A stretch of DNA of 64,000 bases. Source: Acidobacteriota bacterium (GTDB taxonomy: Bacteria; Acidobacteriota; UBA6911; RPQK01; JAJDTT01). Location of the stretch: NCBI GenBank assembly GCA_965217775.1, contig CBDCJH010000002.1, forward strand, positions 1,600,001-1,664,000, written 5' to 3'. The notes under the pieces are model-generated. The model had not been told where the DNA came from, made no database searches, and worked only from the letters and a program-made list of their open reading frames with translations. Below, piece by piece: positions 13,759 to 58,332 of this stretch (its first letter is position 1; the number at the start of each line of letters is the position of its first letter). The position numbers and the translations under genes are program-made.

Positions 13759-13916
13759 CAGTCCGTGGTGAAAGTCTCGCGAGCACCGAAACCGTTCCTG
13801 CGCCCGCCGGACAAGGCGCGATTCGGGAGCATACCGGGAGTATGTGACCGAATCGCAACGCAGTCCGCCGGGATGCAGGGACGGTCGAATGCCGTGACGA
13901 CTTTTGCCGCGGGCTG
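13759..13916 (+). mobile_element. MITE-A copy 1 (158 bp)
   Basis: Imperfect 17-bp TIRs CAGTCCGTGGTGAAAGT / ACTTTTGCCGCGGGCTG; TCAT duplicated on both sides. Confidence 0.93.
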
Positions 13917-17716: not shown

Positions 17717-17874
17717 CAGCCCGTGGCAAAAGTCATCACGGCATTCGACCGTCCCTGCATCCCGGCGGACGGCGTTGCGATTCGGGCACATACTCCCGGT
17801 ATGCACCCGAATCGCGCCTTGTCCGGCGGGCGGAGGAACGGTCTCGGTGCTCGCGGGACTTTCACCACGGACTG
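17717..17874 (-). mobile_element. MITE-A copy 2 (158 bp)
   Basis: Reverse orientation; TTAA duplicated on both sides. Confidence 0.93.
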
Positions 17875-24960: not shown

Positions 24961-25118
24961 CAGTCCGTGGTGAAAGTCCCGCGAGCACCGAGACCGTTCC
25001 TGCGCCCGCCGGACAAGGCGCGATTCGGGTGCATACCGGGAGTATGTGCCCGAATCGCAACGCCGTCCGCCGGGATGCAGGGACGGTCGAATGCCGTGAT
25101 GACTTTTGCCACGGGCTG
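24961..25118 (+). mobile_element. MITE-A copy 4 (158 bp)
   Basis: ATAG duplicated on both sides; the left copy contains the upstream gene's TAG stop. Confidence 0.93.
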
Positions 25119-42886: not shown

Positions 42887-43321
42887 ATCCGGTTCGCACA
42901 CAGAGGGCTGCGGAGATTCTACCAGCCCGTGGCAAAAGTCGTCACGGCATTCGACCGTCCCTGCATCCCGGCGGACTGCGTTGCGATTCGGTCACATACA
43001 CCCGGTATGCTCCCGAATCGCGCCTTGTCCGGCGGGCGCAGGAACGGTCTCGGTGCTCGCGAGACTTTCACCACGGACTGCTACGAGCGGGACGATGCTC
43101 GCGGGCTGAACGCCGAACATGTACCCCGAATCAGACGTGCGCTGACCGCTCTGCAAGATGCACGCTCGCCTCGGAACCTGGACCTTCCTGGTTGGCGGCT
43201 TCACCGGCTCAAAGGGAATCGTCGCGGGCAATGGAGCGTGCGCATATCTGGAAATTGGAGAATTGTGTTCCGCTTCGAATACGGCGAGGCGGTCGATATC
43301 GAATTGATCGACTACCACTGA
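42887..43321 (+). pseudogene. higB: HigB/RelE-like toxin carrying an in-frame MITE insertion; no canonical start codon seen
   Basis: IRFAHRGLRRFY-[54-codon insertion]-ERDDARG…LHRLKGNRRGQWSVRISGNWRIVFRF…IDYH. Confidence 0.85.
42923..43080 (-). mobile_element. MITE-A copy 5 (158 bp), inside higB
   Basis: CTAC duplicated on both sides. Confidence 0.93.
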
Positions 43322-56289: not shown

Positions 56290-56693
56290 ACGAAGGTCGC
56301 TTCATTATCGTCAGATATTCAGCGACCCGGTGAAAAATCCGGGCCACGAAAGCAATTCCGGCTGTTGTTTGATTATCTGACTGCGGTGAGAAATTCGGTG
56401 GAGTTTCGAGAGCGACCGGAATTTCGTCGTGGCCAATCCCTGCGGCCTGTCTTCCGGACTGCGTGCATTGGCGCCGTTCTGATTCCGATCCTGCTTACAG
56501 CCTGCAGTCACAAGCGGCCGATTCTGACCCGAACGGATCCGTCCGGTCCCTCGGCGCACCGAGGTAACAGCCCGTGGTGAAAGTCTCGCGAGCACCGAGA
56601 CCGTTCCTGCGCCCGCCGGACAAGGCGCGATGAGGGAGTATCCATGTTGCAAATCTTCCGATTTTCCAGGGATTGTTTCCTCCCTGGTTAGAC

Positions 56694-57647
56694 TCATCCG
56701 ACCGCCCTGACTGGCCGCGGTGTCCACACCCGATCCTGGCTCAGCAGGACGTTGGCCAAAATCACCATCTTGCGCATGATCGCCGTGAGCGCCACCTTCG
56801 GCGCCTTGCCCCGCTCACGCAGCTGGCGATACTTCTGGATGTAGTCCGGATTGTGTCGAATGGCGGTGAGGGCGGCCATATACAGCATCCGCCGCACCCG
56901 ATGCCGGCCCCCGCGGATGAAGCGACGTCCCTTCCAGGTCCCCGACTCCCGAGCCACCGGCGCCAGACCGGCCAAGCTGGCCACCGCCTTGGAGTCGATC
57001 TGTCCCAGTTCCGGCATCAGAGAGAGCAGGCCCGCGACCGTGACCGGACCCATTCCCGGAATCGAAGTCAGCACTTCGGCTTTGCGCGCCAGCGCCGGAT
57101 CGGCTTTCAGCAACTTGCGGAACTCGCCGTCCAGGGCCCGGATCTGGCGCTCAATCTGAGCCAGCCGCTGTCGCAAATGCCGCTTCACCATCGGGTGGCG
57201 CGCGTGGTGGCTCCGGTTGCGAGCCGCCGTCCGATCCTTCACCAGCCCGTCCCGCGCCGAGATCAGTTCCTCCAACTGGCGCTGCGTGGGCGAGGACACG
57301 TCCACACGCCGCAACGGGAGCGCCTCCCCCATCCGGGCCAGGATCCGGGCATCCACCGCGTCGGTCTTGGCCTCCTGGCCCAGCGCCTGCGCGAACCGCC
57401 GCGCCCGCATCGCGTTGACCCGAGCCAGTGGCAACCGAGCGGCCAGAGCTTCCTCCATCGCCCGGTGCCAGGGGCCCGTGGACTCATACACCACGCACCG
57501 GACCTCCGGTCCGATCCAGCGGGCCAGGGCCTGGAACCCTGCCGTGTCGTTGGGGAACCGCTTCGACCGTCCCGAAGGCCACTCGTGCACGTCCAAATGC
57601 GCCTTCGAGATGTCCACACCCACCGTCTTTGAGGTATCCTGAGTCAT
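56694..57647 (-). CDS. IS110 family transposase / bridge recombinase
   Basis: DEDD RuvC residues (GVDISK, YESTG, KTDAVDA), SIPGMG, LAGLAPVARESG with catalytic Ser, GGR..VRRMLYMAA. Confidence 0.96.
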   Translation of the reverse strand: MTQDTSKTVGVDISKAHLDVHEWPSGRSKRFPNDTAGFQALARWIGPEVRCVVYESTGPWHRAMEEALAARLPLARVNAMRARRFAQALGQEAKTDAVDARILARMGEALPLRRVDVSSPTQRQLEELISARDGLVKDRTAARNRSHHARHPMVKRHLRQRLAQIERQIRALDGEFRKLLKADPALARKAEVLTSIPGMGPVTVAGLLSLMPELGQIDSKAVASLAGLAPVARESGTWKGRRFIRGGRHRVRRMLYMAALTAIRHNPDYIQKYRQLRERGKAPKVALTAIMRKMVILANVLLSQDRVWTPRPVRAVG

Positions 57648-57654
57648 CTTTCCT

Positions 57655-57815
57655 TCCTCCTGTGCTTGTCGTGCGAGCCTTGACGCTCACGTATCCATTC
57701 AGGACGTTGGGAAAGACGGTGGCGGCCCCACTCCCTCCCGGCCCTTGACGGCCGGCATACATAACGGCCCGACCACCGCCGCCGAGGCGCCTCTGGCCAG
57801 AGGCGCCTCGGATGG
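57655..57815 (-). ncRNA. Predicted IS110 bridge RNA
   Basis: 5' hairpin at 57782-57811; target loop GTATGC-hairpin-GAGGGAG; donor loop ATGGATAC-hairpin-GACAAG; guides match the target and donor junctions; boundaries approximate. Confidence 0.85.
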
Positions 57816-58332
57816 ATCCTCCCAAAAGATCCCAACCCGTATCGGAATAACCCACCAGAAATCATGCCGGCGCCACCGAGCCAAGCCTGGACGATGGCTG
57901 GGTCACGGCCCTGCGCCTGCTGTCGCCACTGGCGGCGTTGACGGGGGCAGGGGGGGCCGGCCCCCCCTGAGACCCCCCGGATGCAAAGAGACACATACCC
58001 ACTTGAAATCCCTGAAACGAGAGCCCCGAGGCCCCCTCGTCACCCGGAACCCCCCTGTGGAAAATCAAAGATTTCCCACAGGGTGCTCCCTTTTTGCTGA
58101 CACCACAATCTGTACCCCCCCAAGAAGAAAGACAGACAAGAAATAACAGACAAGCATACCGGGAGTATGTGACCGAGTCGCAACGCAGTCCGCCGGGATG
58201 CAGGGACGGTCGAATGCCGTGACGACTTTTGCCACGGGCTGGTAAGGGTGCCGCAACCGAATCGGTTCCGGACTCCGCGCAACATCTTCACGGTTGGCGA
58301 AGGGCCGAAGCGGTCTACCAGAAAGCCTATAG

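What the first reader, a model, noticed from the sequence alone, without database searches (positions are those of the whole stretch)
56568..58241. IS110 bridge-recombinase element whose bridge RNA appears programmed to target a multicopy MITE
Seen in sequence (minus strand): the IS sits in MITE-A at CGGTATG-CT-CCCTC with the CT core duplicated. Joining its two ends gives the donor ATGGATA-CT-TGTC. Upstream of the transposase lie a perfect 30-bp palindrome (57782-57811) and two loops. Loop 1 reads atGTATGC-CGGCC gtcaag GGCCG-gGAGGGAG (57762-57731): the left guide matches 6 of 8 left-target bases and the right guide is the exact reverse complement of CTCCCTC. Loop 2 reads ATGGATAC-gtgagc gtcaag gctcgcac-GACAAG (57698-57665) and matches both donor halves exactly. 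Both inner hairpins share the loop GTCAAG. Established: this is the target-loop/donor-loop layout of IS621-type bridge RNAs. Inference: this ortholog uses another transposon as a self-multiplying safe target, and because the MITE's TIRs and TSD are intact it could also be carried along by the MITE's transposase. It is a complete recombinase + guide + donor + target set.
Basis: partly seen in the sequence, partly recalled or inferred. Interest (0 to 1): 0.9.

Follow-up and report, generated by a model that had tools for sequence, protein, structure and literature searches.

The report
Bridge-RNA insertion sequence targeting a MITE
This is an intact IS110-family "bridge RNA" jumping gene whose guide loops match one spot at the tip of a small, roughly 270-copy transposon (a MITE), and every copy found sits at exactly that spot; it is a clear natural example of a known mechanism, not a new one.

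Summary
Window 56637-58154 (- strand) is a 1518-bp IS110-family element. It encodes a 317-aa DEDD/Tnp recombinase with all five catalytic residues. Upstream lies a predicted bridge RNA: a perfect 5' hairpin, a target loop and a donor loop. The element sits between CT cores in a 158-bp MITE.

All 4 copies in this genome, and all 3 full copies of an 89%-identical relative in a sister species, lie at the same CT. They lie in the same orientation, at 7 different loci, in MITE copies that differ from one another. All 89 genomic copies of the 12-bp guide-specified target lie in this MITE.

Sibling IS110 elements in the genus keep the donor loop. They carry other left target guides that match their own flanks, which are REP-like hairpins. 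This covariation is the strongest support for RNA guidance.

The MITE is real: it has TIRs, a 4-bp duplication in 145 of 188 copies, and three intact IS1182/IS5-like elements with the same ends.

Hitch-hiking on the MITE is plausible but not supported, because the MITE arms differ between IS-bearing copies. No circle junction, promoter or activity was shown.

IS110 elements are already known to target repeats, so this is a new member of a known kind, of moderate interest.

The parts
58242..58245 (-). Target-site duplication of MITE-A (TTAC on the minus strand), left copy
   Evidence: A 4-bp TSD is identical on both sides in 145 of 188 MITE copies with recognisable ends.
58155..58241 (-). MITE-A left arm (87 bp). 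It starts with the TIR CAGCCCGTGGCAAAAGTC and ends with the left target CGGTATG.
   Evidence: 100% match to bases 1-89 of the empty MITE. TIR comparison.
56637..58154 (-). IS110-family element 'IS-A', 1518 bp including the CT core at each end (58153-58154 and 56637-56638)
   Evidence: Four copies at 99.7% identity or better in the genome. Empty sites define the ends.
57938..58132 (-). Segment of the left end (IS positions 23-217) that is 77-83% identical to the sub-terminal region of a multicopy IS3-family element in sister genomes. It separates the IS terminus from the bridge RNA.
   Evidence: The adjacent ORF in L033 has rve + HTH_21 domains.
57782..57811 (-). 5' stem-loop of the predicted bridge RNA (perfect 30-nt palindrome)
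   Evidence: Relatives have a different sequence here that also forms a perfect hairpin.
57717..57780 (-). Target-binding loop module: outer stem, internal loop with left guide GTATGC (57760-57755), inner hairpin with loop GTCAAG, right guide GAGGGAG (57737-57731)
   Evidence: Fold. Guide matches. Guide/flank table.
57658..57704 (-). Donor-binding loop module: left donor guide ATGGATAC (57698-57691), inner hairpin with loop GTCAAG, right donor guide GACAAG (57670-57665). The 3' side of the outer stem overlaps the ribosome-binding site GGAGG (57656-57660).
   Evidence: The guide bases are conserved in all 9 aligned relatives.
56694..57647 (-). Recombinase gene, 317 aa: DEDD RuvC-like domain (D12, E55, D96, D99) and Tnp domain (S235)
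56639..56693 (-). Right end. It holds the left donor half ATGGATA (56639-56645) and a conserved TTGCAA (56647-56652) that could act as a -35 box after circularisation (inference).
   Evidence: The same right-end word occurs in all IS-A and IS-B copies.
56568..56636 (-). MITE-A right arm (69 bp). It starts with the right target CCCTC and ends with the TIR.
56564..56567 (-). Target-site duplication of MITE-A, right copy
   Evidence: DNA contigs of runs X2 and X1 join 56562 to 58241 (5 ambiguous letters), which is this site with one TSD and neither the MITE nor the IS.

Best explanation
Window 56637-58154 is an intact, recently active IS110-group insertion sequence, called IS-A here.

Proposed mechanism:
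- Its 5' non-coding end encodes a bridge RNA.
- The donor loop pairs with the joined ends of the element (ATGGATA / CT / TGTC).
- The target loop pairs with GTATG / CT / CCCTC. In this genome that 12-bp word occurs only at the apex of the long hairpin formed by a 158-bp MITE, MITE-A.
- The DEDD/Ser recombinase, guided by this RNA, inserts the excised element at that CT without any other change.
- The element therefore lands only in copies of another transposon. Insertion there should cost the host little, and the MITE's own IS1182/IS5-like transposase multiplies the sites.

Shown here: anatomy, site specificity, exclusivity of the target, guide/flank covariation among relatives, and independence of the insertions from the MITE arms.

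Inferred from the family's published mechanism: RNA guidance itself, the circular intermediate, and the strand-exchange chemistry.
For: 1. Protein. It matches PF01548 and PF02371 and NF033542 at 217 bits against a cut-off of 140. It aligns to IS621 and ISCro4 structures at E about 1e-27, with D12, E55, D96, D99 and S235 on the catalytic positions (residue roles from passages of PMC11208158).

2. RNA. The predicted fold is a 5' hairpin plus two internal-loop modules, with z = -4.6. The same architecture is predicted for 9 relatives. The consensus has 39 pairs, 5 of them with compensatory changes, and the 5' hairpin has a different sequence in IS-A and IS-B yet is perfect in both.

3. Guides. 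The left guides read like the top strand and the right guides are its complement, as published for IS621. The matches are 6 nt and 7 nt for the target, and 8 nt and 6 nt for the donor.

4. Site specificity. 4 of 4 copies in G000 and 3 of 3 full copies in G007 are at the same CT in the same orientation. The three G007 loci are not shared with G000. The orthologous G000 sites hold no MITE, a 97-bp MITE deletion form, and an empty MITE.

5. Exclusivity. The 14-mer target occurs 83 times, all 83 in MITE-A. The 12-mer occurs 89 times, all 89 in MITE-A.

6. Independence from the MITE arms.
- IS copies differ at 1-4 of 1518 bases while their MITE arms differ at 3-4 of 156.
- In G007 the IS copies differ at 0-2 of 1518 and sit in different MITE sub-families. 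Those sub-families share only 5 bp to the right of the core.

7. Covariation. Sibling elements IS-B and IS-C (55-58% aa identity) keep the donor guides. Their left target guides are ACCGCCGC, GTCGCCGCT and CACGCCGCT. Each equals its own flank at 7-9 positions, in REP-like hairpins of the form GGCGRY-N5-7-RYCGCCG-CT-CC, of which G000 has 214.

8. Recent activity. DNA contigs of two runs carry this locus without the MITE and the IS.

9. Weak support. Contigs of two RNA libraries from one study cover 57479-57965 and 57663-57818, the second being the predicted bridge RNA span. They also cover most of the gene, with 0-1 differences.
Against: - No experiment or read shows the RNA's ends, the circle junction or recombination. 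No 'goes back' joint was reported, and contigs cannot show one reliably.
- The left target guide matches only 6 contiguous bases, against 8-9 in the siblings.
- Single k-mer matches of this length are common by chance.
- No sigma-70-like promoter was found in 56500-58300.
- The bridge RNA lies about 340 nt from the left terminus, because of an IS3-like insert. A junction promoter such as IS621 uses would therefore be far from it.
- Rfam 15 gave no bridge RNA match, so RNA membership rests on architecture alone.
- DNA can be present in RNA libraries, and the RNA runs come from one study.
Confidence: 0.85

Rival explanations
1. The IS is spread passively. The MITE::IS composite (1674 bp, intact TIRs) is moved by the MITE's IS1182/IS5-like transposase, and the constant position in the MITE only reflects one ancestral insertion.
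For: - Three intact 1475-bp elements with the MITE's 16-18-nt TIRs, 4-bp TSDs and a 451-aa DUF772 / IS1182-like ORF exist in G000.
- The composite is about the size of that IS.
- This locus occurs without the MITE and without the IS in runs X2 and X1, with 0 differences over 255 flanking bases in X2. One composite insertion would explain that allele in a single step.
Against: - No two of the 4 IS-bearing MITEs in G000 share arms: 3-4 of 156 differences, against 1-4 of 1518 in the IS.
- In G007 near-identical IS copies sit in MITE sub-families that differ right next to the core.
- The arms of the window copy are 100% identical to two empty MITEs.
Confidence: 0.05
2. The IS spreads among MITE copies by homologous recombination or gene conversion, using the MITE arms as homology, without site-specific recombination.
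For: In G000 the arms next to the IS are identical for about 50-70 bp in 3 of the 4 copies. Most differences lie in the distal TIR parts, but copy 3 differs 15 nt from the left junction.
Against: - In G007 the right arms of IS-bearing MITEs share only CCCTC before diverging (CGAAGC versus AGAGCG). That is too short for homologous exchange.
- The exact single-CT junctions and the guide complementarity have no role in this model.
- Sibling elements show the same precision in unrelated hairpin repeats.
Confidence: 0.03
3. Site choice is made by the protein alone, and the loop complementarity is coincidental.
For: Single 6-8-nt matches are frequent by chance. No RNA or activity data exist for this element.
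Against: - Four matches fall at the expected loop positions and on the expected strands.
- Left guides co-vary with flanks in four guide classes across IS-A, IS-B and IS-C, while the donor guides and the donor stay constant.
- RNA guidance is established for the family (PMC11208160 and PMC11208158, passages seen).
Confidence: 0.03

Closest known systems
IS621 (E. coli; IS110 group; structures 8wt6-8wt9)
   Same: - Same two Pfam domains and the same catalytic D, E, D, D and S residues.
- CT core.
- Bridge RNA in the left end, directly upstream of the gene, with a 5' stem-loop, a target loop and a donor loop.
- Left guides pair with the bottom strand and right guides with the top strand.
- The natural target is a dispersed genomic repeat (REP).
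   Different: - The proteins align over about 300 residues at E = 8e-28; percent identity was not computed.
- The target is the apex of a TIR/TSD-type MITE, not a REP unit.
- The right target guide pairs with 7 nt (4 in IS621) and the left guide with 6 contiguous nt (9 in IS621).
- The left end is lengthened by about 330 nt, including an IS3-like fragment.
ISPpu9 / ISPpu10 (Pseudomonas putida, IS110 family)
   Same: - Multicopy, and inserted at one site in a repeated intergenic palindrome.
- For ISPpu10 a stem-loop immediately 5' of the target is reported as a second specificity determinant (abstract of 10.64898/2026.03.19.712850).
- Here the left target is likewise the 3' arm of a small stem-loop (CATAC / GTATG, -2.8 kcal/mol as DNA). 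In IS-B and IS-C it is the 3' arm of a GC-rich hairpin.
   Different: Their targets are REP-type sequences. The role of the hairpin here is only an inference. For these papers only the abstract, outline or search listing was seen.
IS4321 / IS5075 (IS1111 group)
   Same: [quoted passage not shown]
   Different: - They belong to a different subgroup. That the IS1111 group carries its guide RNA in the right end is recalled, not taken from any call.
- The target is a TIR of a large transposon, not the centre of a MITE.
- The paper was seen only as an entry in the reference list of PMC11208160.
IS-B / IS-C, sibling IS110 elements of the same genus (for example C2:1161107-1162660 and C2:2744277-2745829)
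   Same: - 66% nt and 55-58% aa identity.
- Same donor halves, same donor loop, same scaffold and the same TTGCAA in the right end.
   Different: - The target loops are set to REP-like hairpins ending in ..CGCCG-CT-CC.
- The left end is short, with the 5' hairpin about 16 nt from the terminus.
- Two copies are 3.4 kb long and carry extra DNA.

Membership tests
IS110 family (IS110 group) bridge-recombinase elements | N-terminal RuvC-like DEDD domain (PF01548) with the four acidic residues | tested here: met
   PF01548 at E = 1.5e-19. D12, E55, D96 and D99 align with the IS621 DEDD positions (roles).
IS110 family (IS110 group) bridge-recombinase elements | C-terminal Tnp domain (PF02371) with the conserved catalytic serine | tested here: met
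   PF02371 at E = 8.1e-21. S235 in the motif ESG aligns with the IS621 ESG.
IS110 family (IS110 group) bridge-recombinase elements | Curated family model above its cut-off | tested here: met
   NF033542 'IS110 family RNA-guided transposase', 217.4 bits against a cut-off of 140.
IS110 family (IS110 group) bridge-recombinase elements | No terminal inverted repeats; a short core (CT) at both junctions; scarless insertion | tested here: met
   Empty MITEs equal left arm + one CT + right arm at 158 of 158 bases. CT is present at both junctions of all 7 copies.
IS110 family (IS110 group) bridge-recombinase elements | Bridge RNA in the left end: 5' stem-loop, target-binding loop and donor-binding loop | tested here: met
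   Predicted folds only. There is no Rfam model to score against, and no bridge RNA family matched.
IS110 family (IS110 group) bridge-recombinase elements | Left guides identical to the top strand, and right guides complementary to it, for both target and donor | tested here: met
   Target guides GTATGC and GAGGGAG; donor guides ATGGATAC and GACAAG. The rule is from passages of PMC11208160.
IS110 family (IS110 group) bridge-recombinase elements | Guides co-vary with the insertion site among relatives | tested here: met
   Four left-guide classes each match their own flanks at 6-9 positions in the copies tabulated (15 with a flank read) and read off (L032, L048, L038).
IS110 family (IS110 group) bridge-recombinase elements | Sequence-specific insertion | tested here: met
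   7 of 7 full copies (4 in G000, 3 in G007) are at one CT in one orientation.
IS110 family (IS110 group) bridge-recombinase elements | Circular intermediate with a joined right-end / left-end donor | tested here: inconclusive
   No such joint appeared among the contigs of 4 runs. Contigs drop rare forms. The joined donor word is absent from the assembled genome (0 hits), as expected for a transient circle.
IS110 family (IS110 group) bridge-recombinase elements | The bridge RNA is transcribed | tested here: inconclusive
   Contigs of two RNA libraries from one study cover the region with 0 differences. Strand and ends are unknown, and DNA carry-over is not excluded.
MITE (the target element) | Short, non-coding, multicopy, with terminal inverted repeats and target-site duplications | tested here: met
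   - 158 bp, with 276 BLAST hits, 211 of them full length.
- TIR of about 18 nt.
- 4-bp TSD identical in 145 of 188 copies.
- Present in 8 of 8 other genomes of the genus and in 0 of 12 outside it.
MITE (the target element) | An autonomous element with the same ends that could supply the transposase | tested here: met
   - Three 1475/1476-bp elements share the 16-18-nt TIRs and have 4-bp TSDs.
- Each has an intact 451/452-aa ORF with PF05598.
- The best NCBIfam match is IS1182, at 158 bits, below its cut-off of 270.
- Mobilisation itself was not tested.
REP elements (alternative label for the target) | Palindromic units of about 20-40 bp without TIR/TSD structure | tested here: not met
   MITE-A is 158 bp with TIRs and TSDs. 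The REP-like hairpins of this genome are a different repeat, used by IS-B. The REP size range and its lack of TIR/TSD structure are recalled, not taken from any call.

The most novel reading that the evidence does not exclude
A three-level chain of mobile elements in which the top parasite also hitch-hikes.

The chain:
- An IS1182/IS5-like element multiplies MITE-A.
- IS-A is RNA-programmed to the MITE's apex.
- MITE-A::IS-A composites, with intact TIRs and about the size of the autonomous IS, are themselves moved by the MITE's transposase. This would give an IS110 element a second, RNA-independent route to new loci.

Evidence that fits one-step arrival of the composite: in public runs, the allele of this very locus that lacks both the MITE and the IS has identical flanks.

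A related possibility is escape by the MITE.
- The youngest and largest MITE sub-family (87 copies, 1.8% mean pairwise difference, against 4.0% in the sub-family that hosts the IS) has lost the CT core and two right-target bases.
- That sub-family makes up 51% and 61% of the counted sites in the two genomes with intact IS-A, against 6% in G006, which has none.

Both ideas have mundane alternatives.
- For hitch-hiking: two successive insertions.
- For escape: the changes also lengthen the MITE's own stem, and G000 and G007 are close kin.
Probability: 0.15. Interest if true: 0.6.

Novelty: new member of a known kind. Interest (0 to 1): 0.35.

Why it matters
- One genus provides a compact natural demonstration of bridge RNA modularity. 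Sibling elements share the donor loop, the scaffold and the donor. They differ in the target loop, which has been reset from REP-like hairpins to the apex of a MITE.
- The locus offers a complete native set for bench work from a little-studied lineage, probably Acidobacteriota, found in sponge metagenome runs. The set comprises recombinase, RNA, donor and about 83 free genomic targets. The three natural target variants have graded mismatches: T is a full match, M has 2 right-target mismatches, and N has lost the core.
- It is also a clean case of one mobile element living inside another. This bears on how site-specific elements limit damage to the host.
- It does not change the understanding of the mechanism.

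Tried and rejected
- Rfam 15: only weak chance matches (Xoo5, miRNA models), all below their gathering scores, and no bridge RNA family matched. This gives no information on membership.

- Unbiased k-mer scan: single guide-length matches are not significant on their own (194 of 200 and 45 of 200 shuffles), so I did not use them as statistics.

- First search for the MITE's autonomous partner: a strict TIR pattern gave TIR pairs of 2.0-6.2 kb. These turned out to be separate partial or whole MITE copies flanking ordinary genes (RraA-like, RecG, DnaB, an integrase island), not transposons. A looser pattern then found the real candidates.

- Promoter scan: 0 sigma-70-like sites. The junction promoter idea (TTGCAA in the right end plus a weak -10 in the left end) is by eye only and scores poorly for IS-A. 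It scores better for IS-B.

- Circle junction: no joint from the right end back to the left end was listed among the contigs of X1, X2, X10 and X11. Contigs drop rare forms, so this says nothing.

- Parts without RNA-library cover: 57966-58141 and the unique flank 56400-56533 have no RNA-library contigs.

- The many 'skips about 1516' joints are simply the about 80 empty MITE copies elsewhere in the genome, not excision at this locus.

- A thirteen-base match to the left junction at C2:869976 lies outside any MITE and diverges at once. About 0.2 such matches are expected by chance, so I treat it as chance.

- Pararhizobium relative (33% aa identity; L024, L025, L027): I located its approximate ends but did not work out its core or guides, so it is not used.

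- Tandem duplication of the left end in copies 3 and 4: I looked for a target-like or half-match site at the duplication point and found none convincing (abstracts only of the two half-match preprints). It is left unexplained.

- Escape reading of the MITE sub-families: the diagnostic changes also extend the MITE stem, and the two IS-bearing genomes are close kin (93-97% identical flanks). The correlation is therefore only a hint.

- Literature: two full-text searches for IS110 together with MITE found no report of an IS110 element specific for a MITE (8 papers, 1 paper). Subscription journals and supplementary files are not covered.

Full report
**What is there**

Read on the minus strand, the region has nested parts.
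- A 4-bp duplication, TTAC, lies at both ends.
- Inside it is a 158-bp element with about 18-nt inverted ends, called MITE-A here (arms 58155-58241 and 56568-56636).
- A 1518-bp element, IS-A, splits MITE-A at one CT (56637-58154, counting a CT at each junction).

IS-A encodes a 317-aa protein (56694-57647).
- It matches PF01548 (DEDD_Tnp_IS110) and PF02371.
- It scores 217 bits on NCBIfam NF033542, 'IS110 family RNA-guided transposase', against a cut-off of 140.
- It aligns over about 300 residues with the solved IS621 and ISCro4 recombinases at E about 1e-27.
- D12, E55, D96, D99 and S235 fall on the positions that the IS621 structure paper names as catalytic.

**The RNA**

The 183 nt upstream of the start codon fold at -93.9 kcal/mol (z = -4.6; 0 of 200 shuffles fold as well). 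The fold has three parts: a perfect hairpin (57782-57811) and two modules, each made of an outer stem, an internal loop and an inner hairpin with loop GTCAAG.
- In the first internal loop, the 5' side carries GTATGC and the 3' side GAGGGAG.
- In the second, the 5' side carries ATGGATAC and the 3' side GACAAG.
- The flanks read CGGTATG / CT / CCCTC. The element ends read ATGGATA / CT and CT / TGTC.
- So each left guide repeats the top strand and each right guide is its complement. This is the rule published for IS621, seen in passages of PMC11208160.

That paper also says IS621 uses a nine-base left and a four-base right target guide, and that the right guide is longer in some orthologues. Here the target is read by 6 + 7 bases, which specify the 12 bp GTATG-CT-CCCTC.

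Rfam 15 gave no bridge RNA match. A blind k-mer scan showed that single matches of this length are common. The loops alone therefore prove little.

**Site specificity**

The genome (6.43 Mb, 2 contigs) holds four IS-A copies that differ at 1-4 of 1518 bases.
- All four split MITE-A at the same CT, in the same orientation.
- Unoccupied MITE copies equal left arm + CT + right arm at 158 of 158 bases.
- MITE-A gives 276 BLAST hits, 211 of them full length.
- The 14-mer target occurs 83 times, all in MITE-A. The 12-mer occurs 89 times, all in MITE-A.

A sister genome (G007; a public record names it an uncultured Acidobacteriota MAG) has an 89%-identical IS-A.
- Its three full copies sit at the same CT of MITE-A.
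- Its flanking genes map to three G000 places that hold no MITE, a 97-bp MITE deletion form, and an empty MITE.

This gives seven insertions at seven different loci.

**Spread by the IS's own machinery, not through the MITE**

- In G000 the MITE arms of IS-bearing copies differ at 3-4 of 156 bases, which is 10-30 times the divergence of the IS itself.
- In G007 near-identical IS copies lie in MITE sub-families that share only CCCTC to the right of the core. This rules out homology-driven conversion.
- It also argues against composite transposition as the general route.

**Covariation**

The genus holds sibling IS110 elements, IS-B and IS-C (66% nt and 55-58% aa identity).
- They have the same donor halves, the same donor guides and the same scaffold.
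- Their left target guides differ (ACCGCCGC, GTCGCCGCT, CACGCCGCT). Each equals its own left flank at 7-9 positions.
- Those flanks are the 3' arms of REP-like hairpins of the form GGCGRY-N5-7-RYCGCCG-CT-CC, of which G000 has 214.
- The right guides always cover CTCC, and in several copies 5-7 bases.
- The nine aligned RNAs give a consensus of 39 pairs, 5 of them with compensatory changes. The 5' hairpin has an unrelated sequence in IS-A and IS-B but is perfect in both.

Within one genus, then, the target loop changes with the target while the donor loop and the donor stay fixed. This is the best evidence here for RNA guidance.

In both target classes the left target is the 3' arm of a stem-loop directly 5' of CT-CC. 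This recalls the target stem-loop reported for ISPpu10 (abstract only).

**The target is a true MITE**

- It has a 4-bp duplication identical in 145 of 188 copies, mostly NTAN words.
- It folds into one long imperfect hairpin (-81 kcal/mol). Arm changes between sub-families are compensatory, and the IS target lies at the apex.
- It occurs in 8 of 8 other genomes of the genus and in 0 of 12 searched outside it.
- Three 1475/1476-bp elements with the same 16-18-nt ends, 4-bp duplications and intact 451/452-aa ORFs are candidate sources of its transposase. The ORFs match PF05598. The best NCBIfam match is IS1182, at 158 bits, below its cut-off.

**Recent activity and expression**

- DNA contigs of runs X2 and X1 join 56562 to 58241. 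This is the locus with one TTAC and neither the MITE nor the IS. X2 shows 0 differences over 255 flanking bases.
- Contigs of two sponge metatranscriptome libraries from one study cover 57479-57965, 57663-57818 and most of the gene, with 0-1 differences.
- This is compatible with transcription but shows neither strand nor ends.

**What remains open**

- No circle junction, promoter or activity has been shown.
- The bridge RNA lies about 340 nt from the left terminus. IS positions 23-217 are 77-83% identical to the sub-terminal part of a multicopy IS3-family element of sister genomes. A junction promoter would therefore be distant.
It could explain the allele lacking both elements in one step, but the arm comparisons do not support it.

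**Comparison and verdict**

IS110 elements 'often' target repeats, and IS621 targets REP elements (passages). ISPpu9 and ISPpu10 do the same (search listing or abstract). IS4321 and IS5075 target the ends of Tn21-type transposons (seen only in a reference list).

Two full-text searches found no IS110 element reported as MITE-specific. Supplements were closed.

I file this as a new member of a known kind. The anatomy is unusually complete and well supported by internal controls, but the mechanism is not new.

Noticed in passing
G000 C2:5761734-5761805 and C2:6041129-6041200 (outside the window; loci L003, L004, L009, L010): Two of the four IS-A copies carry an extra tandem copy of IS bases 1-74 (left terminus) between the MITE arm and the full element. 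They also share two SNPs (positions 102 and 516). The variant has therefore transposed as a unit using its outermost left end. How the duplication arose is unexplained, and no target-like or half-match site was evident at the duplication point.
   Followed up: partly
window 57938-58132 (IS-A positions 23-217): This part of the IS-A left end is 77-83% identical to a repeat present in many copies in sister genomes (G003, G006, G007, G002, G004). In G002 locus L033 it is the sub-terminal region next to an IS3-family transposase (rve, HTH_21). IS-A seems to have captured a piece of another IS between its terminus and its bridge RNA.
   Followed up: partly
G000 C2:310455-311929, C2:316892-318366, C2:2325898-2327373 (loci L058, L059): Three intact 1475/1476-bp insertion sequences have the same terminal 16-18 nt as MITE-A, 4-bp duplications and a 451/452-aa DUF772 / IS1182-like transposase. 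Two copies are identical and the third differs at 232 of 1479 aligned positions. They are the likely drivers of MITE-A.
   Followed up: yes
whole genome G000. Further MITE-A copies in the window include window 13759-13916 and 42923-43080, and CA-core copies containing window 17797-17810 and 25025-25038.: MITE-A has sub-families.
- T has the IS target: 81 full-length copies, 7.4% mean pairwise difference. The ATCGCG sub-type that hosts the IS has 39 copies at 4.0%.
- M has a CT core but CCCGA: 19 copies at 3.5%.
- N has a CA core: 87 copies at 1.8%, the youngest burst.
N cannot be a target. Its diagnostic changes also lengthen the MITE's own stem.
   Followed up: partly
G000 C2:2676741-2680150 and C2:4662165-4665567: Two copies of the sibling element IS-B are 3.4 kb instead of 1.55 kb, with about 1.9 kb of extra DNA between the recombinase gene and the right end. 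The content was not examined. Compare the preprint on expanded IS110 elements (abstract only).
   Followed up: no
locus L005, upstream of C2:4662165: A long tandem array of about 100-bp units, each containing the REP-like hairpin GGCGGC-TGGAAA-CCGCCG followed by CTCC, lies directly upstream of an IS-B copy. It offers many IS-B target sites in a row.
   Followed up: no
G001 C1:1399388-1400921 and C1:3983215-3984818; G003 C1:4517817-4519413 (loci L029, L030, L037, L038, L045, L047): Chimeric elements. Each has an IS-A-type left end (85-87% identity to positions 1-290), a decayed IS-A donor loop and about 40 codons of its gene. A complete IS-C bridge RNA and recombinase follow. In G001 the whole 1803-bp unit sits in a REP-like array at a site matching the IS-C guides.
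   Followed up: partly
window 56563-58245: In public DNA runs X2 and X1 a contig carries this locus without the MITE and the IS (joint 56562 to 58241). The insertion is therefore polymorphic in natural populations.
   Followed up: partly
G008 contigs C250 and C537 (loci L034, L042): IS-A left-end pieces (bases 1-89, 90-92% identity) lie at contig ends of a fragmented sister genome. This suggests unassembled IS-A copies there.
   Followed up: no
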